A stretch of 64,000 nucleotides of DNA, taken from the NCBI GenBank assembly GCA_000004985.1, contig GG738889.1; one strand, given 5' to 3'. Position numbers and translations under genes: made by a program. Source of the stretch: Naegleria gruberi (lineage: Eukaryota). Under the pieces are notes generated by a model. That model was given only the letters and a program-made list of their open reading frames with translations, was not told the origin of the DNA and did not search any database. Shown here piece after piece: positions 2,153 through 16,728 of this stretch. Each line of letters begins with the position of its first letter. Position 1 is the stretch's first letter.

Positions 2153-3256
2153 TCACAGTAGAATCATTCTAGATTTACTGATCACTTCTGTTGGGTGATG
2201 AATTACATGATTACTTGTTGCATTAGTTGATGTGTTACAAATTGTAGTTAGAGTTGTCGTATTATTGTGGCTGGTAATTGAGGTAACCTTATTTTCCATC
2301 AAGAGAGTTTTAAGATTCTTGCCTTGCATTTGAGCAATTTCCTTAGAATTGAAGTTAGAGAATCCCTTTGCAATTATCTTTCTACTGTTACAATCTCGAA
2401 TAGTAACAATGTCATCCCTTTCAAACTCGCCAATTAACTTGGTTATTCCACAAGCAAGAAGATTTTTACATCTTTGTGAAAGTGCAGAGGTGGCTCCTTG
2501 ATCAACCAGAATACTACCTTTTTCTTCACCTTTTCTTAATACCTCCAGAATGGAACAATTCATTGGATAATGCGATTCGAGAGCTCTCACATGATGAACC
2601 AGAGTGTCCACATAATGGTCCGATACAGGTAGGTATTCCTGTAACCTGTAGAGGTAATCTCTGTTTGGACCTGAATGGCCAAAAGCTCTCGCAATATGTT
2701 TTGATGAACAACAGATATTCTCTGGACCAATGAATGGACACTTCTTTGGCTGTTCTCTATTTACAAACGGATCAAAATAATAAACTATGGCATTCTGACA
2801 AACTGCAATCGTATCAGAAACGTAAACCTTAACACTGGTTTTCTGATAACCAGCAACCAATTCTCTATAATCTAAATCTTTCATCACTCGCTCAGCATTC
2901 TCAAATGATACCTTATAACAAGTTCCCCAAACTATTTCCTCGTCCATATCTTCACTTTTGGAATTGATATCATGTTGTAAAGATGATTTGTGAGCAAAAT
3001 TTTGATATTGACAAGAACAAATAGGCTTATTAGATTTTTCTTTCAGTACTTTCTGATAATCATTTTCTCTGATGATTGTAAGCGTTCTTCCTTCTTGATT
3101 TGGTTGTCCTCTATGGAATAAATCCTCCAACCAGAATCTTCTTCTGAATCCTTTGATAAAACCACTAAAAGAACTTTCATATTCAAATCCCGGCCTCCAA
3201 ATAACAGACCCATAGGCAAAGATAAACAACGGAGCATCAATATCACCCATACACAT
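2153..3256 (-). CDS. ChaC-like gamma-glutamylcyclotransferase with C-terminal PUA domain (fusion)
   Basis: The N-terminal half contains FIFAYGSVIW...RRRFW...RTLTIIRE and a conserved YRE glutamate, typical of the ChaC/GGCT fold. The C-terminal ILVDQGATSALSQRCKNLLACGITKLIGEFERDDIVTIRD...SKEIAQMQGK resembles the PUA domain found at the C-terminus of glutamate-5-kinase. It is a single continuous 367-aa ORF starting at ATG. Confidence 0.7.
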   Translation of the reverse strand: MCMGDIDAPLFIFAYGSVIWRPGFEYESSFSGFIKGFRRRFWLEDLFHRGQPNQEGRTLTIIRENDYQKVLKEKSNKPICSCQYQNFAHKSSLQHDINSKSEDMDEEIVWGTCYKVSFENAERVMKDLDYRELVAGYQKTSVKVYVSDTIAVCQNAIVYYFDPFVNREQPKKCPFIGPENICCSSKHIARAFGHSGPNRDYLYRLQEYLPVSDHYVDTLVHHVRALESHYPMNCSILEVLRKGEEKGSILVDQGATSALSQRCKNLLACGITKLIGEFERDDIVTIRDCNSRKIIAKGFSNFNSKEIAQMQGKNLKTLLMENKVTSITSHNNTTTLTTICNTSTNATSNHVIHHPTEVISKSRMILL

Positions 3257-3565
3257 GATGTTGCACTATTAATATATTGCTGGAGAGAAGTTGATCCTTT
3301 TTTTCGGTTTGAATTGTCTACTTATGATACTCATCGAAATGCATTTCCAAGCTTGCTTCAATTTCCATGGAAAAAGTCTAGACTAGGAACGGAAATATGG
3401 ATTTTCCAACTTGCTGTTTTTTTGAAGTAAAGAGATGTTTTCATAATGGAAGATTCACTCCTCATAACATTAAATACATTCTCCTTAAGTCCTCCTAAGG
3501 CAATTTTATTCTTTTAAATACCAAGTCAACATGTTTGTAATTTTATTAATTCTCAATTATTTAAA

Positions 3566-5122
3566 ATGTCTTCAAATCTTCCATGTGCAGAGATTATTTT
3601 GGAGGCTTGCAAAAAATTGAGTCACATTCTTGGTTCAAGCTTTGGTCCACTTGCTTTTCATAAATTAATTATTAATTATCATCACCATGTATTTTCGGAT
3701 GTAATTTATTCAAATGATGGAGCAACAATTATGGATTCACTTCCGATTGTTAATCCTATCGGAAGAATTTTATGTGATTTATCAAAATCTCAGGAGGAAC
3801 AAGCTGGAGATGGTACAACTGGTGTTGTTTTATTGTGTTGTGAATTGGTTAGAAATTGCTTGGAGGAATTACATTTAAAACAATTAATACCTTTGGATGT
3901 GATTTGCAGTAATTTATCTACTTTGAAAAATGTATGCAAAGAGACTTTTCTGACTATAATGCAGAGAGACAGGGTCATGATGCAACAATTTGTTACAAAT
4001 AATTGTGAAATTATTAATTTTATATGTAAAAATTCATTACAATCTAAGGAATTGAGATTTCATATTGAACATTTTAAAAGCATTTTAACTGAAGGATTTT
4101 CTAATGGAAATTCCATTCCTAAACATACTAAATTTCATATTATTGAGGGTGGCCAATTGAATGACAGTTTTGGATTTAACGGAATTTTTATGAATATTTC
4201 ACAATCTTCATTCTCAAAGAGATACGCCTATTCTAGTAGTTATTTGGATAAATTATCCAAGTGTAGATCAATATTATTGCTAAAGAGGCAAAATTTAGAA
4301 ATGAATCAAAAAGAAAAGCTATTTTGGAGAAGTTTATTTGAATTGGGAACCAGTAGTAGTGGAATAATAATTTTGATGGAGGGAGCATTCCCTTTTCATG
4401 ATATATTTTATAGTTCAGATTCTAATGTGCTGATATTTGATAAATTAAGCTCGAAACATTTGCAAAATATATCACATTCTCTAAATCTACCTTCAATTAT
4501 CCCAGTTGGATCAACCACCACAGTCGAGAATGAGGATCTCTATATTTTCGAGTCTTCTCCTAATTTTTCAATTTTTCAAAACGAGATTTTCATAACTATT
4601 CCTAATGTTTGTGACTTTTTTAATATTATTATTCGAGGGCCTTCCAATACTATTAATGAGGAATCCAAGAGGTCAATTAAGGATGCCTTCTATGTAATTA
4701 AAGGGTTTATCAATGAAAACAACTTTTTCAGTGCTTCCAATACATCAGAATTATGTGGAGGAGGATGTCACATTGAAATGAGTATATGGAGAGATGTCAG
4801 CAATTCCTCAGTACTGTCCAAAGGAATTTCAACAATATTTGCTGATAGCTTCTTATCAATAGTGAGATTTTTATTGCACTCGAGTGGATTCAAACATGAT
4901 TCAGAAATGATAATTTTACGATTGGCAAGTGAATATTCTAAAAATCCAAACTCTTTCTTTGGTATTGATCTTACCAATCAAGATTCACAAACTCCAATAA
5001 TTTCCAACATTATAGAAGCTCATATCATTGAAAATCTCAGAGTCAAGAAAATAATGATCGAGTTGGCCATTGAAACAGCCATAAATCTACTCAGAATCAA
5101 ATCAATTGATTTTACCAATTAA
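3566..5122 (+). CDS. divergent TCP-1/cpn60 (group II chaperonin, CCT-like) family protein
   Basis: The 518-aa ORF retains the LGP...NDGATI...GDGTT...GGG(C)xE signature spacing of the CCT apical and equatorial ATP-binding motifs. It is otherwise highly diverged from canonical CCT subunits. Confidence 0.55.
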   Translation: MSSNLPCAEIILEACKKLSHILGSSFGPLAFHKLIINYHHHVFSDVIYSNDGATIMDSLPIVNPIGRILCDLSKSQEEQAGDGTTGVVLLCCELVRNCLEELHLKQLIPLDVICSNLSTLKNVCKETFLTIMQRDRVMMQQFVTNNCEIINFICKNSLQSKELRFHIEHFKSILTEGFSNGNSIPKHTKFHIIEGGQLNDSFGFNGIFMNISQSSFSKRYAYSSSYLDKLSKCRSILLLKRQNLEMNQKEKLFWRSLFELGTSSSGIIILMEGAFPFHDIFYSSDSNVLIFDKLSSKHLQNISHSLNLPSIIPVGSTTTVENEDLYIFESSPNFSIFQNEIFITIPNVCDFFNIIIRGPSNTINEESKRSIKDAFYVIKGFINENNFFSASNTSELCGGGCHIEMSIWRDVSNSSVLSKGISTIFADSFLSIVRFLLHSSGFKHDSEMIILRLASEYSKNPNSFFGIDLTNQDSQTPIISNIIEAHIIENLRVKKIMIELAIETAINLLRIKSIDFTN

Positions 5123-5243
5123 ACAACAAGCTTTAAAATTGCTTCTAACAAAGGCAAGAAGTGTTTGGCGCCAAAAATTTAAAAAAAATAACCAAACAAC
5201 AATCTCACACAAAGGCTTGCATTCGCTGTTGGTGAAGTTGAAA

Positions 5244-6557
5244 ATGTCGTCATCGAAGCAACAAGAGACTAACAATACGGAACAAACACAACAACAAATG
5301 GAAACACAACAACAATATGATAATCAAGAGGAAGTTGAAATAGATGAGAGATCTTTGAAATGTAATGCTTTTATCATTGAATATATACTTTATAAAAAAG
5401 TTGATTATCTTGTAGAGGATTTGTTAAGAGAACTCCCATATGATCGCGATAATGTTAATCTTAGAACTAGATTAATTATAAGTCAATTGAATGGATTGTG
5501 GGAAGAAGTTGAACAGGAAGATAAAGTTGATGGTGATAGAATCGGATTTATTGTTAGTTCTGTGACTGCTTTACTAGGATTACTTGATGAGAGAAAACAA
5601 ACTTTTGCAGAATTTTTCCAAGAAGCAACCTTCTCCGCAGATGCTTATTCTAAAAAGATCAAGAAATGGTTGACCTCTTTCATTAATGCTGACACATATG
5701 AACTCAAATATCAATCACTTGAGGCTCTTGTCAAATATTTCAATATACTAGGAAATTATCTTGGTGAACCTAAGCTTTATTCATTGCTGAATCAACCAAA
5801 ACAAATCCAGGAGGAAACACAATCTAATGATGCTGTAATGAATGAACCACAAATACCACAAATCACTGTTGATTCACTTCCAGACGAGCCATGTACATAT
5901 TTAGGGCTTAAAAACACAGGAATTTCAACATCAGAAGAAACTACAATCTTTATAACAGAAAGACTTTTTAACGCTAGGAAACCATCAAAACCAATACCTC
6001 AGGTACCTGAGAAAGCACCAAGACAAGAAGAGCTTACTCAGCAACCTACTCAGCAAGTTGTTGCAGCCTCTACTCAATCTAATCAAGATGAACAAGCCAA
6101 GAAGAGAAAACCTACTGCTAATGCCAATAATTTAAAAAAGAAGAGGTTAATGGATAGTCAAAAGGATGCTAAAAGAGTTGTAATTATTAGGGAATTTGCT
6201 TCTTCTGAAGATGATGAAGATATTCCTATTACTCGTGCTTCTAAGCTACAAAGACCAAGATCTAAATCAGATACAAATGGTAAATCCAAGAAGAAATCTG
6301 TTTTTGAGGATTCTTCCAGTAGTGAAGAAGAAACTGAACGAGTTCTTTTCAAGCCACGTAAAAAATCAAAAGATACCAAGCAAAAGAAAGTATTTTGGAC
6401 TGATGATGAAGTTAACGCCTTACTTAAAGGTTTCAAGATGTATGGAACTCAGTGGGCAAGAATTTTAGCAGAATTCAAAAAGACTTTCCATCCCAACAGA
6501 GATAGTCTTAGTCTTCGTGACAAATACAGAAATATGGAAAAGTATGGTCAAATTTAA
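5244..6557 (+). CDS. Myb/SANT telobox-domain protein (TRF/Taz1/Tbf1-like putative telomeric dsDNA-binding factor)
   Basis: The C-terminus is WTDDEVNALLKGFKMYGTQWARILAEF...RDSLSLRDKYRNMEKYG, matching a single Myb repeat with the telobox LKDKWRN-type ending. The N-terminal region is helical. The first in-frame ATG is at 5244, which is the MSSSKQQ start, whereas the track ORF starts at an upstream non-ATG. Confidence 0.55.
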   Translation: MSSSKQQETNNTEQTQQQMETQQQYDNQEEVEIDERSLKCNAFIIEYILYKKVDYLVEDLLRELPYDRDNVNLRTRLIISQLNGLWEEVEQEDKVDGDRIGFIVSSVTALLGLLDERKQTFAEFFQEATFSADAYSKKIKKWLTSFINADTYELKYQSLEALVKYFNILGNYLGEPKLYSLLNQPKQIQEETQSNDAVMNEPQIPQITVDSLPDEPCTYLGLKNTGISTSEETTIFITERLFNARKPSKPIPQVPEKAPRQEELTQQPTQQVVAASTQSNQDEQAKKRKPTANANNLKKKRLMDSQKDAKRVVIIREFASSEDDEDIPITRASKLQRPRSKSDTNGKSKKKSVFEDSSSSEEETERVLFKPRKKSKDTKQKKVFWTDDEVNALLKGFKMYGTQWARILAEFKKTFHPNRDSLSLRDKYRNMEKYGQI

Positions 6558-6578: not shown

Positions 6579-9037
6579 TTATTCTTCGTCATCGATAACA
6601 ATAGCATCTTCATCCTCTTCCTCTACTTTTTTCTTTGATCTTGATGAGCTTGCTTTCTTTGGTTTTTCTTCAGTTTTCTTTGGTCTTCCTCTTCTCTTTG
6701 GTTGTTCTTCTTCCTCTTCGTCTTCATCTACATCTAATGCTTTGAACTTGGCTTTCTTTGAAGCTGCTGCCTTTCCTCTTGTTTTCTTTGGCTTTTCTTC
6801 CTCTTCATCACTTTCGTTCTTCTTTCTTTTAGCTCCTCTCTTTTTTGGTTTTTCTTCCTCTTCATCACTGGCAACCTTCTTTTTTCTTCCTCTTGTCGTC
6901 TTTTTTGGTTTCTCTTCCGCAGCTTCTTCGTCGCTTACAACCTTCTTTTTTCTTCCTCTGGTTGTTTTCTTTGGTATCTCTTCTTCCTCTTCTTCACTTT
7001 CATTTTTCTTCTTTCTGCTTGTAGGTTTCTTCTTTTCGACAATTTCCTCTTCCTCAAGAATATCCTCTTCATCAGATTTGTCCTCAGATTTTGAAGCCTT
7101 AGAGAGCCTGTCAGACATTATTTTATCCTTATCCAAGTTCTCTTTGCTTTCTTCTCTATACTTTTGTAAATATTTCTCCAAATCAGATTCAGAAATGTCT
7201 TGATTGGCAAATTGTTTGAGATCAGACCACAATTTCTTTTGTTTTGACTTGATATCACTAGCAACAAAGTCATCAATGGCATGAGCTTCTTCCTTATCTA
7301 CAAAGTCAACAACAGAGTTTTGGAATTCAAATTCATTCAATACTAATAAACCATTAATATTAGTTTTTTTGGTGGATGTCTCTTTCAGGAAATGTGAAAC
7401 TAAATCTTCAATCTTGATACCATCAGTAAGAGCATCACTTGCAGCATCTGCAAATAGCTCACTATTATTATCATTATTCAAAATTGCATTAAGTAATTGT
7501 TCTTTGGATTTCTTTTTCTTACTCTTCTTTTTTCCCTTTTCCTCTTCAACTTCTTCATCCTCTTCCATGTTGTCCTCTTCCTTTGATGCCTTTTTCCTTG
7601 ATAATAAAAGCAAATCTGATGGGTTGGCAATCTTTCCAACAAAGTTTTGACCAAATCTTTGAGGATTGACAGTGGCATAACCACCACTGTAATCTACTCT
7701 GAGTCTGATAATTGGTAGATCTAATCCAGGATATTTCTTATAGTAGGCTTTGAGTTCTTTAATTGCTTCTTCATCCCCTTCAAAATTACTTAGTTTGTCT
7801 TCCTTAGCTTGTTTAATTAATTGATTTACGTGTTCTTTAAGGAAATCAGCAATTTCGTCTGGATTGTTCTTAATATGTTTCAAATCTTGTTCAAAATCAG
7901 AGAGAGAAATTGAATCAAATACGTAAGGTCTTACAGTTTTCAATGTAATTGGAATAACTCTGAATGAATCTTTGTAAATTTCCAAGATGGCAACCTTTTT
8001 TGGCTTAGCTTCTTGGTGTGTGTATGTAGTAGAAATAGAACTACCTGGTTGCATTACTTCAAATCCACCAGTAGCACTTTTTGTTGGAGTGATTTGTTGT
8101 TCATGTTCATGACCCCACACTACTAGATCAAAAAATCCTTTCAGCATACTTTCACTAATATTTCCTTTCTTTGTGTGATGTTGATTTCTATTTTGGTGAA
8201 TGGTCATCAAATTAAACCATTCATTTGAACCTTGACTATCTTCACCACTTGGTCTAAAGAATGTCACTTTCTGATTTTTAAATGTTTGATATAAACGTTC
8301 GTCTCTTATATAACCAAGTCCATAAAGTGCAAGTTTAGTTTCTCCTTTTTGTACTAAAATAGGTTTAACTTGAATATTATCCACAGTTTCACACTTTCCG
8401 AAATAATTTATCAAATTACATTGTGCAAGAACATCCAAAACACTGAGACTATTCTCTCCAGACCAAGCATCATGATTACCTAATGTTTTAATCATTGTCA
8501 TATAAATTATGAAAACTCATAAAATACAAACTTACCACTGATTGCAAAAATTGGAAGAGAAATATTAACATTAGGATCTTCATAATTTACAGTTCCTTCA
8601 GGATTTGATTTGAAATTTACAGATTGATCACTTAAAATTTGCAAAGGAACAGGCTTGTCACCAAAAACATATTTTCTCAGAATTGATATTGTCTTGTGAA
8701 GAGTATCACGAGAAGGCTTGTTATCATGGAAAAGATCACCTCCCTGTAACACAAAATCTACATTATATTTGTGACCATATTGAATAATCTCCTCAAAGAT
8801 GATAAAAGAGTCATCCTTTCTAACTGTATCACGTTCCAAGTATCCAACATGATTATCCGTTGTTATTAAAACTCTGAGAACATCCTTTTCATCAACATCT
8901 TGCTCATTAACACCACTTGATCCTTCTTCAACAGGTTTAATTCCTCCCTCTTCATCATCAACATAACTACGCTGTGATGAGAGACGGAAATTAGAGGCTT
9001 GTGAAGCTCCACTCTGTGTCCTAGGCATATTGTTCAA
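6579..9037 (-). CDS. MRE11: MRE11 double-strand break repair nuclease. Two exons at about 9037..8536 and 8479..6579.
   Basis: Exon 1 has phosphoesterase motifs I-III (TDNHVGY, GGDLFHDNKPSR) and ends ...PIFAISG with a GTAAGT donor. A 56-bp intron ends in CATTAG. Exon 2 begins NHDAWSG (motif IV, GNHD) and continues through the MRE11 capping domain. The long K/E-rich C-terminal tail carries basic repeats. Confidence 0.9.
6745..7060. repeat. imperfect tandem repeats (about 60-66 bp units) encoding the K/E-rich AT-hook-like tail of MRE11
   Basis: A repeated tcttcc/ttttttgg motif on the plus strand corresponds to reiterated EEKPKKTTRGRKKKV[A/V]SDEE peptides, plus one KRRGRPKK unit. Confidence 0.5.
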
Positions 9038-12172: not shown

Positions 12173-15100
12173 TTAGAATCTTGGTGGAGGTGGAGGAACA
12201 CTACCACCACCAAATGAAGGTGGAGGAGGAACACCTCCTGACATTGGTGAGGAAGGTGGAGGTGGAGGAACACTGCTTGCTCCACCAAATGAAGGTGGAG
12301 GTGGAGGCATAGAACCACCTGATGGTGGAGGTGGAGGTGGAGTATTCATCATATTTCCTCCCATTGTTGGGGATGAAGAATATGAGCTAGGACTGCTACT
12401 GTATGTATCCATAGATGGAGGTTGTGAAGTTGGAGTATGTTGTGAAGAACCACCAAATACTGATCCACGACTTCTGAAATTAGAAAATGATTGTTCATTG
12501 GTTGTGACAGTGGCAACAATTTTGACCTTTGTGAAATCTTCATCGGCTGGTGGTGCGTAATCATCTGGAGTATTGTCTGCAAGTGGATAGTAATTACGTA
12601 AGCAATTGAATACACGATTGTTAATGGAACGAACAATGTGTGCATTATTGAGGAATGGTTTCAATTTTTCAAAACCTTCCTTTGAAATATTGGAAATATT
12701 CAAAACGTGATCAGAAAAGTTGAAAGCATCAAATCTGAGTTGTTGTTGGAAGAGATAGACAATTGTAGAACCTCCCCAGAAGAAACCATCTCCAAAGACT
12801 TCAAAATCAGATGGTTCATTGGCAACTTCAGGTGGAATACAGAAAACAAATTGCAAAACACCCCACAAACGATAGAATTCCTTTGAAGAGTCCAACTTTT
12901 GCAAACGATCTGGTGGTGAAGTACCTTTCCATGATTCTCTAACGTTAGCAAGGAAACCACTCATTCTTTCCAAGAATTGTTTGAAGAGTGACAATAGTTC
13001 ACGTGGAGGTTGATACATTCTCATAGCTCTAGAAGCTTGTTCAGTAAGCTTCTTGGACAATTCTGGAGCGTGAATACTTTGTTGAACTTGTGGATCATTG
13101 ACGAATGAAGCAATAGTTGTGGCAAGTGGTGTTTGTTCAACATCCTTTCTAATATAATAATCAGAAAGTTTTTGCAACAAGAGTAAATCTTCTGACATCA
13201 TGTGTTCACTTGTTAAACCATAACGAGATGATTTACGTGCAAGACTATTCTTTTGGTGTTGTTGCTGTTGTTCTTGGAATTCAGCTTCATTTTCAATTTC
13301 TTCTTGTAACTTTTCAACTCTCTTTTGTTTGGCAGTCTTAGTGAGCGGCTTAATACCCAAGAATGGAGCAGAAGCAATATAGGTTGAAATATTTTGAGGC
13401 ATCATACTAGAATCGAGTAAGAGAAGGAAACAGATACAATTACCAATACTTCTAAAGGCGTGGAATACACCTCCCTTCAAATCATCATAATCAAGGAAAT
13501 CTCTGAATTGAGCAATGAAATATGAATAGACACCTATTAATTTGTAAGCAGCAGGTTGGAGTGTAATCTTTGGTGCAATGGCTTCCATCATAGCACCAAT
13601 GTATGGAGACATTTGATTGTACAACTTATCTTCAATATCAGTAATAACAGTTTCAATAATGAGGGCAAGAGATTCTTGACCAACCAATCTGATCAAAGTT
13701 TCAATGTGTGGACGACCGAAGAATTCCTTATATTGATCTAAAATTGGTGTGAATGCTTCAGAGAAACCAGCTGTTACAAATTGATGGAGAGCACGAGGCT
13801 TGTAACTTTCTCTCTTGTAGTCAATTTCACTGTATGTATATTTACTACGTACGAAACGATGGGTGACAGTGTTGAAACAGAAGTTAGGGAAGAAGTCCAT
13901 AATCAATTCTTCAATAATGTGTCTGGCAATACGACTTTCGAATGAAACCATACTGGTACAATCGTTGACTTCAGCAAAGACAGATTCGAAAGAGTCCAAA
14001 GCAAGGTGTTTAGATAAAAGTTGGTGAGTGATTTTAACACTTTCCAACATGATTTCCAATTCAACGATACCATTCAATTCTTGGGATTCGAATTTCTTGA
14101 TGAGAGCCAAAATGTTTTCTCTGATGTTTACGTTCATACGTTGGGTAATAATATAGTTCAAGTCAACATATCGACCAAGAATGTTAATGTGTTTCTGTAA
14201 GAGCAAAACGTCAAACTTGCTCTTGGTAAAGTTAAAGTTTGTCTTTACGAATTGATCCTTTTCTAATGGAACACGCAACTTGTTGTCAAGTAAAATACCA
14301 AGAGCAACAGATCTGTAGTGTTTGTAGATAGATTCACTCAATTTAAAGATCAATTGATCAAAGACCAAGTTAACTTCAGCTTCAATTTCATCATATAAGA
14401 ATCTACGCTTCAAAACAAACAATGCTCTATAAGCGGCATCATTGTAAATGTTAATTGGATAAATGATAGATTCCATCAAGGCACTGTTAGTTCTCTTCAA
14501 AATTTCTTCAGTAAGAATCCATGGCAATGACATTTCAATAGGGAACTGAATCTTCTTGGAAATTTCCAAATAGAATTCACGATACCACAAATCAGCCAAA
14601 TCAGCAGCACGTCTCAATGTGGTAGAGTAGGCCAACAAGTAATTCCAAGTGTAGGTCTTATTGTAGAATTCCTTGAAAGATTCGACATGGGAATCATTAA
14701 AGTCTTTCTTGGAGAAAATACCTGATTTTTGCATACCTGGACTTCTTTCACTGTACAAAGTGGAAATGATTGAACGAATCATGTGAAGTTGTGTGAAAGA
14801 TGGACCAACAATTCTCTTTGGATATTCCAAGGCAGCTTCACCCTTCTTCTTTGTTGGTTTGGTAATGTCTTGAGGTGGTTCATTGAGCCAGTCACCAGCC
14901 AAGTTTCTCAATTCCAAAACAGTTGGGAAGATTGGTCTTTGCTTGTTCTTTGTGTGATAGAGCATATCTTGTAAGTCAACTTGGATGAACTGTTGCAATT
15001 GGTAGTGAATTTCTGAACGAATCAAAGGAGCCATCAATGCATTTTGTTGTAACATGATATTTTCGAGACCCTTGATCATTGAAATGGCATCAACTAGAGC

Positions 15101-16728
15101 TGATCTTTCATCCTTGTCATAGTTGAAACGAACCACACGTTCATATTCAAGTATATCAACCTTTTGACTAGCATCAACAGCTTCATAACGTTGCTTTAAA
15201 GTTCTTGCTTGTTCATCATCAATTGGATGTGAGTATTTCCAAGCACATTGTTCCAAGATAGCGGTTGTCCAAGAGGCAATTAATTTCATACCTTGTTCAG
15301 TCATATCTTTAGCTTTTTCACGCATTGGTTGAGGAATAATTGTTAACAATTCTTGACTTGTTGGAGAATCCTTGATCAATTTCTTCATACGATTGATATG
15401 AAGTTTATAATTTTTAGTGAAATTTTGGAAATCAAATCTCATCTTTGGAATTTGATTAACAAGAAGGAATTGTTTTTGTAATTGTTCTTCTTCCTTTTGA
15501 GAGAGAGACCAATCCTTTTCTTGTAAATTTGGACAATTCTTTAAAACTGTCTTGATAGAGAATGTCATATCACCATATAATGGAATATTTGGATATGATT
15601 TGAAAATCTTGTTAAATCTACCCATACTGTTGGATCCAACTTTTCTCAAATAGTTATTCTTTGAAGTATCCTTGTTATCAATGAGATACATTCCAAATAC
15701 CAAAACACGAATTAATGTGTGTTTTTGATCACAGAACAAATATTGATGATCTTCAAAATTTTCAGAGCATCTTTCCATCAATAGAATGATAATATCTTCA
15801 TATCCAGCATTCTTTATCAGAGAATCTTTGAGACCAGAAATGATAGTATTATTGTTTGATAAGAAATTATAAAGAAGACCATATTCTTCACTCTTTGTAT
15901 CTAAGAAATTCAATTGTTCTTGTGTTAAACCTTCCTTGTCCATGAATTGAGCAGCACGTCTAACAGTTGACATGTCGTTGTTAATGGCTGCTTTCATGTT
16001 TTTGAGAGCATCCAACTTGAGGATTGTATCTAAAACACTAATCATATAATCAAACATGGTTTCACTAGGAATTTCCTTTCTCTTTTCATTAGCAGCCATT
16101 TCAATCATAATCTTTGTGAGTGTTTTGACGGTATTTGTGTGAAAAGCCATCAAATCACGAATCTTTTTAATTTCTGGTTCCAAAACATCGAAAAACTTTC
16201 TATATAATTCAGCCTTGTTTTCAGAATCTGCTTGAATTTGAGGAAGAGCACGTGAAATTGAACGATAAGTGTACAAGGTTTGAATAAAGTATTCACCAGT
16301 TTCTATTATTTCTTGCTATTATTATTGTAAGTGTTATTGTTAGTGATAGTGATGTTATTATTATAGTTGCGATATTTGATGGTTTTGTTGTTGTTATTCG
16401 AAATGGTGGAATCGAATAATATTTGTCATCAACAATTTGTGATTATTATATAATAAATAGTAAAATAAAGATCATAATTGTGAATGTAATATTAAATAGA
16501 AGCAGTGTGAGATTAGTCTAATCATGAGAACAAACCTACCAAAATTTGAATATGTTCAGCTTCTTTAGCAAAACGAGTAGTATAACCACAACGATCAGCA
16601 AAATTGAGTGGACTTGTAAAAGCACCAGTTTCGTAACTAATATAATCTGATGCTGCTTCAATGGTTGGCTGATTAGACTCAACCATGTAAGAGTTGAGTA
16701 CTTTCAATCGTTGCTTGGTATTGTCCAT
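12173..16728 (-). CDS. CYFIP: cytoplasmic FMR1-interacting protein (CYFIP/Sra-1/PIR121, WAVE/SCAR complex subunit). Two exons at about 16728..16540 and 16315..12173.
   Basis: Exon 1, MDNTKQ...NFADRCGYTTRFAKEAEHIQIL, aligns to the CYFIP N-terminus ([21 protein letters not shown]). A 224-bp intron (GTAGGT...AATAG) follows. Exon 2, QEIIETGEYFIQTLYTYRSISRALPQ..., aligns along the whole length of metazoan CYFIP1 and includes conserved blocks such as QFPIEMSLPWILTE and YDEIEAEVNL. It ends with a roughly 120-aa non-conserved Pro-rich tail. Confidence 0.9.

What the first reader, a model, noticed from the sequence alone, without database searches (positions are those of the whole stretch)
3566..5122. 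Highly divergent CCT/TCP-1-family chaperonin paralog
The 518-aa protein keeps the hallmark group II chaperonin motifs in the right order (LGP, NDGATI, GDGTT and a GGG-x-E box near the C-terminus). Elsewhere it is too diverged to be one of the eight housekeeping CCT subunits. Divergent CCT-like proteins in other eukaryotes include the BBS6/10/12 chaperonin-like proteins and CCT8L-type paralogs. If the host organism lacks cilia, this would be an orphan CCT-like protein with unknown client specificity.
Basis: partly seen in the sequence, partly recalled or inferred. Interest (0 to 1): 0.5.

Follow-up and report, generated by a model that had tools for sequence, protein, structure and literature searches.

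The report
Lid-truncated ninth CCT-like chaperonin, Naegleria
This Naegleria gruberi gene encodes a real, selectively maintained extra member of the CCT/thermosome chaperonin family that keeps its ATP-hydrolysis residues, has lost most of the built-in lid, belongs to none of the eight standard CCT subunits or the Bardet-Biedl chaperonins, and is an uncharacterised lineage-restricted family of moderate interest.

Summary
The ORF at 3566-5122(+) is real. It is NAEGRDRAFT_71184, a 518-aa "predicted protein" of the amoeboflagellate Naegleria gruberi. It is a genuine group II chaperonin: Pfam PF00118 E=1e-44, AlphaFold pLDDT 88, and TM 0.72-0.78 to all TRiC and thermosome subunits. It reaches only about 20% of any CCT equivalog cutoff.

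With N. fowleri, N. lovaniensis, Willaertia and three metagenomic proteins it forms a clade with 99-100% bootstrap. The clade lies outside all recovered canonical CCT classes. Its sister group is unresolved.

It shows no affinity to MKKS, BBS10 or BBS12: bootstrap 1%, hhalign scores 0-60 against 218-258 for canonical classes. Unlike those proteins it keeps NDGAT, GDGTT, the sensor Lys and the catalytic Asp.

The Naegleria/Willaertia branch has cut the lid segment from 47 to 26-28 residues. It also lacks 10-25 N-terminal residues.

The locus is syntenic across Naegleria species. dN/dS is 0.15, yet the protein evolves much faster than neighbouring housekeeping genes.

Best reading: an ATP-driven, non-encapsulating accessory chaperone, not a standard ring subunit. 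That mechanism is inferred, not shown. Whether N. gruberi has eight canonical CCTs could not be tested here.

The parts
3566..5122 (+). Complete single-exon CDS (518 aa plus stop) of the divergent CCT-like chaperonin NAEGRDRAFT_71184
   Evidence: ORF list. Identical to the database protein. Pfam PF00118 E=9.6e-45. AF2 pLDDT 87.7, pTM 0.87.
3257..3565 (.). 309-bp intergenic region shared with the divergently transcribed ChaC-PUA gene; presumed bidirectional promoter (inferred only)
   Evidence: Lies between ORF 2153..3256(-) and ORF 3566..5122(+). The same divergent arrangement is seen in N. fowleri and N. lovaniensis.
3638..3664 (+). Degenerate 'LGPxGxDK' nucleotide-pocket loop: SFGPLAFHK (second Gly to Ala, Asp to His)
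   Evidence: Column comparison with 82 group II chaperonins. Willaertia, P0243 and P0386 keep G and D.
3713..3730 (+). NDGATI motif (Asp51), intact
   Evidence: Invariant column in the 87-sequence alignment.
3806..3820 (+). GDGTT P-loop (Asp82, Thr84, Thr85), intact
   Evidence: Invariant columns.
4037..4075 (+). LQSKELRFHIEHF: nucleotide-sensing-loop Lys161 followed by the family signature SK..RF..HF
   Evidence: K161 is invariant. The signature is shared with Willaertia, P0243 and P0386, and is absent from the human CCT1, CCT7 and BBS rows and the other divergent sequences shown.
4286..4360 (+). Truncated apical lid: 25 residues (7-residue loop plus 14-residue helix) where canonical subunits have about 45 residues forming the helical protrusion
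   Evidence: The anchor-to-anchor segment is 27 residues here. It is 47 in all canonical classes and thermosomes, and 80 of 88 non-family sequences fall within 45-50. AF2 places helix H248-261 between strands 233-240 and 266-272. P0243 has a 23-residue loop plus a 25-residue helix.
4667..4687 (+). KRSIKDA: 'RSxxDA' motif with the catalytic Asp373 (equivalent to Mm-cpn D386 / GroEL D398), intact
   Evidence: R369 and D373 are invariant in the 87-sequence alignment. The equivalence to D386/D398 comes from established knowledge of chaperonins.
4754..4777 (+). CGGGCHIE: variant of the 'GGGAxE' nucleotide-binding turn, preceded by a 9-residue insertion relative to the otherwise 17-residue spacer
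   Evidence: The DA>GGG spacer is 26 residues here and 17 in 77 of 88 non-family sequences.
5087..5119 (+). C-terminal LLRIKSIDFTN: the last equatorial strand is kept, with almost no C-terminal tail (8 residues from the LRI anchor)
   Evidence: Segment table. Canonical class medians are 8-38 residues, so this equals the delta median.

Best explanation
Shown:
- This is a functional gene for a ninth, non-canonical group II chaperonin paralog.
- The family has been found so far only in Naegleria (three species), Willaertia and a few environmental eukaryotes.
- The protein keeps the three-domain CCT/thermosome fold and every residue known to be needed to bind and hydrolyse ATP.
- The Naegleria/Willaertia branch has deleted about 20 residues of the apical helical protrusion (the built-in lid). 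It lacks 10-25 N-terminal residues that in other group II chaperonins include the strand joining neighbouring subunits. It has acquired insertions at positions whose length is otherwise nearly fixed from archaea to humans.

Inferred mechanism:
- It still cycles through ATP-driven equatorial and intermediate domain movements.
- It cannot contribute a lid segment to a closed folding chamber.
- It therefore most likely acts as an ATP-regulated binding or assembly chaperone outside the standard eight-membered ring. It could work alone, in a small oligomer, or docked onto TRiC, on a restricted client set.
- This is broadly the way the BBS chaperonins work, but it arose independently and has a live ATPase site.
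For: Identity and reality:
- ORF and database identity.
- Pfam E=9.6e-45.
- AF2 pLDDT 87.7.
- Foldseek TM 0.72-0.78 to all TRiC subunits and thermosomes, with no subunit preferred. Hits include the engineered lidless Mm-cpn 3izk_A, TM 0.78 normalised by target length.

Not a canonical subunit:
- All NCBIfam CCT equivalogs score 57-145 bits for the five Naegleria/Willaertia-branch proteins, against cutoffs of 456-800. Eta and alpha are nearly tied.
- The family is a clade at 99-100% bootstrap. Alpha, beta, delta, epsilon, eta and theta are recovered at 92-100%. No family+class grouping is ever recovered.

Functional gene:
- Synteny ChaC/PUA, CCT-like, Myb, Mre11 is shared with N. fowleri. N. 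lovaniensis shares the upstream PRMT-ChaC/PUA side.
- dN/dS is 0.15 at dS 0.90 for N. fowleri against N. lovaniensis.

Fast evolution:
- N. gruberi against N. fowleri/N. lovaniensis is 44-47% identical, against 75-82% for the neighbouring PRMT and Mre11.

ATP site:
- D51, D82, T84, T85, K161 and D373 lie in columns invariant across 87 sequences. E404 lies in a nearly invariant column. G399 and G400 are conserved within the family.

Lid and N-terminus:
- Lid segment 26-28 residues against 47. N-terminus 26-28 residues against class medians of 30-52. DA>GGG spacer 20-32 against 17.
- Four species start at the same position, and in N. gruberi an upstream in-frame stop fixes the start.
- The basal members P0243 and P0386 still carry a 55-residue lid segment with a 25-residue helix, so the loss is secondary.
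Against: - No experimental or expression data were accessible. Oligomeric state, ATPase activity, partners and clients are all inferred.
- The GP-loop changes in the genus Naegleria (Gly to Ala/Ser, Asp to His) and the Gly-to-Cys change in the GGG turn could weaken nucleotide binding.
- About half of the lid helix remains. The C-terminal strand and stem loop are kept, so incorporation into a ring is not excluded.
- I could not verify that N. gruberi encodes eight canonical CCT subunits. That rests on general knowledge that CCT1-8 are universal in eukaryotes.
- My distance-based trees lack power at deep nodes. They recover BBS monophyly at only 33% and the published BBS-CCT8 link at 7%.
Confidence: 0.5

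Rival explanations
1. It is an alternative or substoichiometric TRiC ring subunit. It would swap in for a canonical subunit, for example during the amoeba-to-flagellate transition when tubulin is made in bulk, and produce a ring with a gap in its lid.
For: The equatorial domain, stem loop, C-terminal strand and ATP site are well conserved, and the model superposes on closed-state TRiC subunits. Specialised swap-in paralogs exist elsewhere, for example the testis-expressed CCT6B mentioned in PMC2846930.
Against: Known swap-in paralogs are close copies of one subunit. This protein has no subunit affinity. It lacks the N-terminal strand and most of the lid. It has insertions at length-invariant positions. 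It evolves at 44-47% identity between congeners, which is unlike a protein locked into two fixed ring interfaces.
Confidence: 0.2
2. It is the functional counterpart, or an unrecognisably diverged ortholog, of the MKKS/BBS10/BBS12 chaperonin-like proteins, and helps assemble the BBSome when Naegleria builds flagella.
For: The host is flagellated (PMC3144413). BBS chaperonins are fast-evolving CCT offshoots, and candidate protist members have been reported (PMC2846930, PMC5534436, PMC10074162). With only the slowest family members in the tree, theta (the reported BBS parent lineage) is the most frequent sister at 40% in one setting. The family has an insertion at the same site as the large BBS10 insertion. 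My trees are too weak to recover even the BBS-CCT8 link.
Against: Family+BBS gets 1% bootstrap. ML distances to BBS proteins are 4.7-6.3 against 3.0-3.8 to canonical classes. hhalign scores are MKKS 3-60, BBS10 0-39 and BBS12 about 3, against 218-258 for canonical classes. Human MKKS, BBS10 and BBS12 have degenerate NDGAT and RSxxDA motifs, and MKKS and BBS12 also lack GDGTT (BBS10 has GDGAK). The family keeps them all. The theta signal drops to 4-24% in other settings, and theta is itself a long branch. A published HMM screen of 40 eukaryotes reported no non-metazoan BBS chaperonins other than in Mastigamoeba, Malawimonas and Dictyostelium (PMC10074162). Whether Naegleria was among the 40 species could not be read.
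Confidence: 0.12
3. It is simply one of the eight ordinary CCT subunits (eta scores best) of a very divergent lineage.
For: CCT eta is the top NCBIfam model for all five proteins of the Naegleria/Willaertia branch. I could not check directly that Naegleria has a separate canonical eta.
Against: Eta scores are 113-145 bits against a cutoff of 669 and lead alpha by only 0.3-25 bits. In contrast, recognisable but very divergent canonical subunits in the same searches score 343-632 bits on their own model, with clear margins. Family+eta gets 0% bootstrap, and eta is the sister in only 5-10% of replicates. Neighbouring Naegleria housekeeping genes are 75-82% identical between species, so the lineage itself is not hyper-divergent. 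Of 88 non-family sequences, 80 keep a lid segment of 45-50 residues, including highly divergent canonical alpha and epsilon subunits.
Confidence: 0.03
4. It descends from an archaeal thermosome gene acquired by horizontal transfer, not from a CCT duplication.
For: A thermosome subset is the most frequent sister in three of four reduced trees, and across all four it is sister in 21-52% of replicates. The thermosome profile gives the top non-family hhalign score for the whole family, 381 against 357 for eta. Best BLAST class is 'thermosome' by 10-26 bits.
Against: The margins are trivial, and thermosomes are the short-branched centre of the tree, where long branches tend to attach. The thermosome profile is also the deepest of those compared (10 sequences). 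NCBIfam ranks eta and alpha above thermosome for every Naegleria/Willaertia member. All known hosts are eukaryotes, and the genes sit in ordinary eukaryotic contexts.
Confidence: 0.05
5. It is a decaying, functionless duplicate.
For: Rapid sequence evolution, skewed composition (Ala 2.7%, Ser plus Ile 25%), and loss of structural elements.
Against: The ORFs are intact at a syntenic locus in the three Naegleria species, and an intact ortholog exists in Willaertia at a different locus. dN/dS is 0.15. All catalytic residues are strictly retained, and 119 positions are invariant across the four orthologs.
Confidence: 0.03

Closest known systems
Canonical CCT/TRiC subunits CCT1-8 and archaeal thermosomes (group II chaperonins, Pfam PF00118)
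   Same: Same three-domain fold (TM 0.72-0.78). Same order of nucleotide-binding motifs. All catalytic residues are retained: NDGAT Asp, GDGTT, sensor Lys, RSxxDA Asp. Overall length is similar.
   Different: It belongs to none of the orthologous classes that could be tested. The lid segment is 26-28 residues against 47. The N-terminal strand is missing. There are insertions at positions of fixed length, with DA>GGG at 26 against 17. It evolves several-fold faster than neighbouring housekeeping genes. Its taxonomic range is narrow, not universal.
MKKS/BBS6, BBS10 and BBS12 (chaperonin-like BBSome assembly factors)
   Same: They are also fast-evolving, non-canonical CCT-family paralogs with altered architecture. 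They are thought not to form CCT-like rings, and they occur in a ciliated organism (PMC2846930, PMC5534436). The family has an insertion at the site of the BBS10 insertion.
   Different: There is no phylogenetic or profile affinity. The human BBS proteins have lost NDGAT and the catalytic Asp, and MKKS and BBS12 have also lost GDGTT, while this family keeps them. The BBS proteins keep a full-length lid segment of 45-51 residues, while this protein has truncated it.
Engineered lidless group II chaperonin (Mm-cpn delta-lid, PDB 3izk)
   Same: A group II subunit lacking the helical protrusion but with an intact ATP site. It is a Foldseek hit at rank 28 with TM 0.78 normalised by target length, level with the highest such values in the list. 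From my own knowledge of the chaperonin literature, lidless variants still hydrolyse ATP and bind substrate but cannot encapsulate or fold stringent clients.
   Different: That protein is a laboratory construct that still assembles into homo-oligomeric 16-mers. Here the truncation is natural and comes together with N-terminal truncation. The oligomeric state is unknown.
Other orphan CCT-like paralogs in protists (Dictyostelium 'BBS12-like' DDB_G0268902; Ceratiomyxa P0005)
   Same: They are lineage-restricted extra CCT-family proteins that fit no CCT class (PMC10074162).
   Different: Ceratiomyxa P0005 does not group with this family (0% bootstrap) and is much less diverged. The Dictyostelium sequence could not be obtained for comparison.

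Membership tests
Group II chaperonin superfamily (Cpn60_TCP1, PF00118) | Profile HMM match above the curated threshold | tested here: met
   153.6 bits against a gathering cutoff of 34.3, E=9.6e-45.
Group II chaperonin superfamily (Cpn60_TCP1, PF00118) | Equatorial, intermediate and apical three-domain fold | tested here: met
   AF2 pLDDT 87.7 and pTM 0.87. Foldseek gives probability 1.00 and TM 0.72-0.78 to TRiC and thermosome chains.
Group II chaperonin superfamily (Cpn60_TCP1, PF00118) | Nucleotide binding and hydrolysis residues (NDGAT Asp, GDGTT, sensor Lys, RSxxDA Asp, GGG turn) | tested here: met
   D51, D82, T84, T85, K161 and D373 are invariant across 87 sequences, E404 is nearly invariant, and G399 and G400 are conserved within the family. 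Deviations: GP-loop G30A and D32H, and the third Gly of the GGG turn is Cys. Activity itself was not tested.
Group II chaperonin superfamily (Cpn60_TCP1, PF00118) | Built-in lid (apical helical protrusion) | tested here: not met
   The lid segment is 27 residues here against 47 in the canonical classes, and it is the shortest of 95 sequences. The AF2 model has a 14-residue helix here, against 25 in family member P0243.
Group II chaperonin superfamily (Cpn60_TCP1, PF00118) | Assembly into double rings of eight or nine subunits | not testable with these tools
   Only indirect evidence is available: 10-25 N-terminal residues are missing, while the C-terminal strand is kept.
CCT1-8 orthologous subunit classes | Score above the NCBIfam equivalog cutoff for one subunit | tested here: not met
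   The best model is eta at 136.5 bits against 669. All eight score 74-137 bits against cutoffs of 456-800. The orthologs behave the same way.
CCT1-8 orthologous subunit classes | Phylogenetic nesting inside one subunit clade | tested here: not met
   The family is a clade at 99-100%. Each multi-sequence class is recovered at 92-100%. Family+class gets 0% for all eight. Gamma and zeta were represented only by the human sequence.
CCT1-8 orthologous subunit classes | Exactly one gene per class in the genome, so this gene would have to fill a vacant class | not tested
   No tool gave access to the N. gruberi proteome. The literature searches found nothing on this point.
BBS chaperonins (MKKS/BBS6, BBS10, BBS12) | Orthology to metazoan MKKS, BBS10 or BBS12 | tested here: not met
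   Family+BBS gets 1% bootstrap, with distances of 4.7-6.3. hhalign scores are 0-60. Reference sequences were verified by exact look-up. Caveat: the method has low power at deep nodes.
BBS chaperonins (MKKS/BBS6, BBS10, BBS12) | Degenerate ATP-hydrolysis motifs and family-specific insertions | tested here: not met
   The human BBS proteins lack NDGAT and the catalytic Asp, and MKKS and BBS12 also lack GDGTT (BBS10 has GDGAK). This family keeps all of them. Only a small insertion at the BBS10 insertion site is shared by position.
BBS chaperonins (MKKS/BBS6, BBS10, BBS12) | Role in BBSome assembly together with CCT subunits | not testable with these tools
   This needs expression and interaction data from Naegleria.
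CCT8L (mammalian CCT8-derived retrogenes) | Recent derivation from CCT8 | tested here: not met
   Family+theta as an exclusive clade gets 0%. Theta is the sister in 4-40% of replicates depending on settings. CCT8L is mammal-specific according to PMC2846930. No CCT8L sequence was included in the analysis.

The most novel reading that the evidence does not exclude
A naturally lid-truncated but catalytically intact group II chaperonin has evolved in heterolobosean amoeboflagellates into a stand-alone, ATP-driven assembly factor. It would work on a specific cytoskeletal or flagellar complex, such as tubulin-rich structures or the BBSome, during the rapid amoeba-to-flagellate switch. That would make it an independent, convergent counterpart of the animal BBS chaperonins, and a natural experiment on what a CCT subunit can do without a closing chamber.
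Probability: 0.15. Interest if true: 0.65.

Novelty: new variant of a known kind. Interest (0 to 1): 0.45.

Why it matters
CCT/TRiC is usually described as a fixed set of eight subunits. The only well-known departures are the animal BBS chaperonins and a few recent duplicates.

This gene shows that a protist lineage independently produced and kept a ninth CCT-like protein with an unusual combination of features. It has a live-looking ATPase site, a truncated lid and a truncated N-terminus. In that respect it resembles the engineered lidless chaperonins used to dissect the folding cycle.

The more conservative environmental relatives still carry a lid. The family therefore records the stepwise conversion of a ring subunit into something else.

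If it proves to be induced during Naegleria's de novo basal-body and flagellum assembly, it would give a tractable handle on specialised chaperoning of cytoskeletal assembly. It would also be a convergent comparison for the BBS chaperonopathies. If not, it remains a modest addition to chaperonin diversity.

Tried and rejected
- I first misread the catalytic Asp as the residue before the invariant Glu in 'xDE..RS', which is E/K/Q/K in the family. That suggested lost hydrolysis. This was wrong: the column is only 40-49% Asp in canonical sequences, and the true catalytic Asp is in 'RSxxDA', which is invariant.
- I treated P0005 (Ceratiomyxa) as a possible bridge to a wider family. It is an orphan of its own: its nearest relatives are generic at about 31% identity, and it joins the family in 0% of bootstraps.
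- A three-sequence MKKS/BBS10/BBS12 bait profile returned only mammalian MKKS. BBS10 and BBS12 were obtained instead by exact look-up.
- The afdb50 fold library was unavailable. Foldseek against the PDB does not discriminate between subunits.
- Literature searches found nothing on the gene IDs, on Naegleria BBS chaperonins, or on Naegleria CCT subunits. The Naegleria genome and differentiation papers are not held, and no supplements are held for PMC10074162.
- No ML tree program is installed. I used ML distances with neighbour-joining and bootstrap, which leaves deep nodes unresolved.
- The weak tree neighbours P0257 and P0376 (20% bootstrap) do not share the family signatures.
- The neighbouring genes (PRMT, ChaC-PUA, Myb, Mre11, CYFIP) give no functional hint.
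Full report
**1. Observation**

The window has about 33% G+C. An ATG-initiated ORF at 3566..5122(+) encodes 518 aa. The protein is 100% identical over its full length to XP_002673596.1 / NAEGRDRAFT_71184 / UniProt D2VQD2, a "predicted protein" of Naegleria gruberi. An in-frame stop lies 17 codons upstream.

It matches Pfam Cpn60_TCP1 at E=9.6e-45. The search of solved-structure sequences returned 111 hits, and all 60 listed are CCT or archaeal chaperonin chains.

NDGATI (residues 50-55) and GDGTT (81-85) are literal.

**2. Not one of CCT1-8**

All eight NCBIfam CCT equivalog models hit, but at 74-137 bits against cutoffs of 456-800. Eta is best at 136.5, followed by alpha at 111 and theta at 110.

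The orthologs behave the same way, with eta and alpha almost tied. Very divergent but genuine canonical subunits from the same searches still score 343-632 bits on their own model, with clear margins.

**3. The family**

Sequence search finds orthologs in N. fowleri (47% identity), N. lovaniensis (44%) and Willaertia magna (36%). After these there is a cliff down to generic CCT and thermosome hits at 22-27% identity.

An exhaustive HMMER search of 1.84 billion representatives with the four-member profile adds three proteins:
- P0242, 550 bits, from a metagenome, Naegleria-like.
- P0243, 231 bits, on a 60.6-kb compact eukaryotic contig of 34-36% G+C.
- P0246, a fragment whose full-length form is P0386.

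P0243 and P0386 share the family's idiosyncratic motifs: SKY[IV]RF..HF, SFPY, GPSD.IVQEI.RALHDA and GGGGNVE.NLW.

Ceratiomyxa P0005, the next hit, is a separate orphan CCT-like protein.

**4. Reference sequences**

- The eight CCTs are 100% identical over their full length to PDB chains of human TRiC.
- The three BBS proteins are exact database entries with the expected names.

**5. Phylogeny**

No tree program is installed. I therefore computed ML pairwise distances using a Gonnet-derived rate matrix with gamma rates. The input was an L-INS-i alignment of 95 sequences and 511 columns. I then ran neighbour-joining with 100 bootstraps.
- The seven-member family is a clade at 99%. Its Naegleria+P0242+Willaertia core gets 100%.
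- Beta, epsilon, eta and theta get 100%, and delta gets 95%.
- The family plus any single CCT class gets 0%. The family plus BBS gets 1%.
- Mean distances from family members are 3.0-3.8 substitutions/site to alpha, beta, gamma, delta, epsilon, eta and thermosomes. They are 3.4-4.0 to theta, 3.7-5.1 to zeta, 5.1-5.7 to MKKS, 4.7-5.1 to BBS10 and 5.7-6.3 to BBS12.

In reduced datasets the family is monophyletic in 100% of replicates. These used two gamma shapes, with either all members or only the slowest two. The canonical classes are recovered at 92-100%. The sister group is unstable: a thermosome subset in 21-52% of replicates, theta 4-40%, delta 8-20%, alpha 7-17% and eta 5-10%.

Global hhalign agrees:
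- The Naegleria core and P0243/P0386 are reciprocal best matches, at 404 and 437.
- For the core, delta, thermosome, eta, beta, alpha and epsilon follow at 218-258.
- MKKS scores 47-60, BBS10 at most 39, and BBS12 about 3.

Caveat: the same trees recover BBS monophyly at only 33% and BBS+theta at 7%. Deep nodes are therefore beyond this method, and gamma and zeta were represented only by the human sequence.

**6. A functional gene**

N. gruberi and N. fowleri share the order PRMT, ChaC/PUA (divergent), CCT-like, Myb, Mre11. N. lovaniensis shares the upstream PRMT-ChaC/PUA side. Both N. fowleri and N. lovaniensis have an extra dynamin-family gene downstream of the CCT-like gene.

Nei-Gojobori dN/dS for N. 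fowleri against N. lovaniensis is 0.15, with dS 0.90 and 77% amino-acid identity over 536 codons.

The protein nevertheless evolves fast. N. gruberi against the other two species is 44-47% identical. The neighbours are 54-55% (ChaC-PUA), 75% (Mre11) and 80-82% (PRMT).

**7. Anatomy**

AlphaFold gives a confident three-domain model, with pLDDT 87.7 and pTM 0.87. Foldseek matches every TRiC subunit and thermosomes at TM 0.72-0.78 and 15-21% identity, with no preference. Hits include the engineered lidless Mm-cpn 3izk_A, at TM 0.78 normalised by target length.

Column-wise comparison shows that D51, D82, T84, T85, K161 and D373 lie in columns invariant across 87 group II sequences. E404 lies in a nearly invariant column. 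G399 and G400 are conserved within the family. D373 is the Asp of RSxxDA, equivalent to Mm-cpn D386 and GroEL D398 (my own knowledge).

There are two kinds of deviation:
- The GPxGxDK loop has Gly to Ala/Ser and Asp to His in the genus Naegleria. Willaertia, P0243 and P0386 keep both residues.
- The third Gly of the GGG turn is Cys.

Segment lengths between conserved anchors are nearly fixed from archaea to humans, but differ in this family.

| Segment | Naegleria/Willaertia/P0242 | P0243/P0386 | Canonical classes and thermosomes | BBS proteins |
|---|---|---|---|---|
| Lid segment | 26-28 | 55 | 47 (80 of 88 non-family sequences at 45-50, minimum 34) | 45-51 |
| Residues before the GP motif | 26-28 | 35 or 51 | class medians 30-52 | 29-37 |
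| DA>GGG spacer | 20-32 | 29-31 | 17 (77 of 88) | 17, or 186 in BBS10 |
| Tail after the last strand | 6-8 | 10-16 | 8-38 | 9-25 |

The short N-terminus is consistent across four species. The Willaertia gene model is additionally truncated by annotation.

In the models, N. gruberi has a 7-residue loop and a 14-residue helix between the flanking apical strands. P0243 has a 23-residue low-confidence loop and a 25-residue helix. The lid loss is therefore secondary within the family.

By contrast, human MKKS, BBS10 and BBS12 keep the lid length but have degenerate ATP motifs.

| Protein | NDGAT position | GDGTT position | RSxxDA position |
|---|---|---|---|
| MKKS | SQSSA | SDCGL | CQTA |
| BBS10 | RNGGR | GDGAK | LHGA |
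| BBS12 | SSTVR | YRTGI | WTCA |

**8. Interpretation**

Shown:
- It is a selectively maintained, lineage-restricted ninth CCT-like paralog family.
- It lies outside CCT1-8 and outside the BBS group.
- It has an intact catalytic constellation and, in the Naegleria/Willaertia branch, a truncated lid and N-terminus.

Inferred:
- It still binds and hydrolyses ATP.
- It cannot supply a lid segment, and probably not the N-terminal inter-subunit strand.
- It is therefore more likely an accessory, non-encapsulating chaperone or assembly factor than a stoichiometric ring subunit. It could act alone, in a small oligomer, or docked on TRiC.

Engineered lidless group II chaperonins retain ATPase activity and substrate binding but lose encapsulation. 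That statement comes from my own knowledge of the literature and was not checked here.

The rivals are a swap-in ring subunit, a convergent or unrecognisable BBS-type factor, an ordinary subunit of a divergent lineage, an acquired thermosome, and a decaying duplicate. Each is weighed in its own section.

**9. Literature**

BBS chaperonins are described as a fast-evolving offshoot of CCT8 that probably does not form rings (PMC2846930; PMC5534436). A 40-species screen found them mostly in metazoa, with candidates in Mastigamoeba, Malawimonas and Dictyostelium (PMC10074162).

No paper mentions this gene or a Naegleria CCT-like paralog. Naegleria forms basal bodies and flagella de novo (PMC3144413).

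**10. Limits**

- I could not query the Naegleria proteome for the eight canonical CCTs.
- I could not access expression data.
- I could not run model-adequate ML phylogenetics.

**11. Verdict**

The finding is real, and correctly flagged as a divergent CCT paralog. The BBS and CCT8L analogy is not supported by sequence.

The distinctive and previously undescribed features are the intact ATPase site combined with the natural lid and N-terminal truncation, and the existence of lid-bearing relatives. I rate it a new variant of a known kind, with interest 0.45.

Noticed in passing
window 2153-3256 (-): The divergently transcribed upstream gene encodes a ChaC-like gamma-glutamylcyclotransferase domain fused to a PUA domain (Pfam). 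The fusion is conserved in N. lovaniensis. The N. fowleri gene model merges it further with the neighbouring PRMT, which is probably an annotation merge.
   Followed up: partly
window 5123-5243; L001 7918-10683; L003 4975-7632: N. fowleri and N. lovaniensis carry a Dynamin_N gene of about 920 aa immediately downstream of the CCT-like gene, and in N. fowleri it lies between that gene and Myb. In N. gruberi only about 120 nt separate the CCT-like stop from the likely Myb start, so this is a lineage-specific insertion or loss.
   Followed up: no
window 5106-6557 (+): The ORF caller's TTG start overlaps the 3' end of the CCT-like gene. The real gene probably starts at the ATG near 5244. It encodes a Ser/Gln/Lys-rich protein with a C-terminal Myb/SANT domain and is only 33% identical to its N. 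fowleri ortholog.
   Followed up: partly
window 6579-9037 (-): Mre11 appears to be split over two adjacent ORFs (6579-8501 and 8507-9037), which suggests a short intron or a frameshift. The Mre11_DNA_bind domain is in the first ORF.
   Followed up: no
window 12173-16276 (-): A CYFIP/Sra1 homolog (SCAR/WAVE complex subunit, FragX_IP E=4e-245) with a proline-rich, FH1-like C-terminal tail. The tail hit is weak and below the Pfam cutoff.
   Followed up: no
L004 5900-6000 (Willaertia magna): The deposited Willaertia ortholog (KAL9646722.1, 486 aa) starts at MKSSLGP. The in-frame upstream sequence IIQDVCVKLKNV matches the family's first helix and is preceded by stop codons, so the gene model is N-terminally truncated, probably by a missed intron.
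   Followed up: partly
P0005 (Ceratiomyxa fruticulosa transcript, EukProt): This is another non-canonical CCT-like protein. Thermosome, eta and alpha all score about 280 bits and none reaches its cutoff. Its nearest relatives are generic at about 31% identity, and its lid segment is 40 residues. It is possibly related to the Dictyostelium 'BBS12-like' orphan reported in PMC10074162, but that could not be tested.
   Followed up: partly
P0289/P0318/P0329/P0335; P0274/P0291/P0293/P0311/P0314; P0304/P0370/P0381: Several other well-supported clusters (71-88% bootstrap) of divergent group II chaperonins from metagenomes fit no CCT class. Extra CCT-like or thermosome-like lineages may therefore be commoner than the textbook eight.
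   Followed up: no
P0245 (1057 aa), P0280 (1047 aa): P0245 matches the thermosome models as two full-length stretches in one polypeptide, at about 1110 bits in total. P0280 is of similar length and gave four matched stretches in the profile search, but it was not scanned against the family models.
   Followed up: no
L002 11761-15004 (metagenomic contig carrying P0243): The lid-bearing family member P0243 lies directly upstream of two called genes with KLRAQ and PPP1R21_C domains, which may be two parts of one PPP1R21-like gene, on a compact eukaryotic contig of 34-36% G+C. The organism is unidentified.
   Followed up: no
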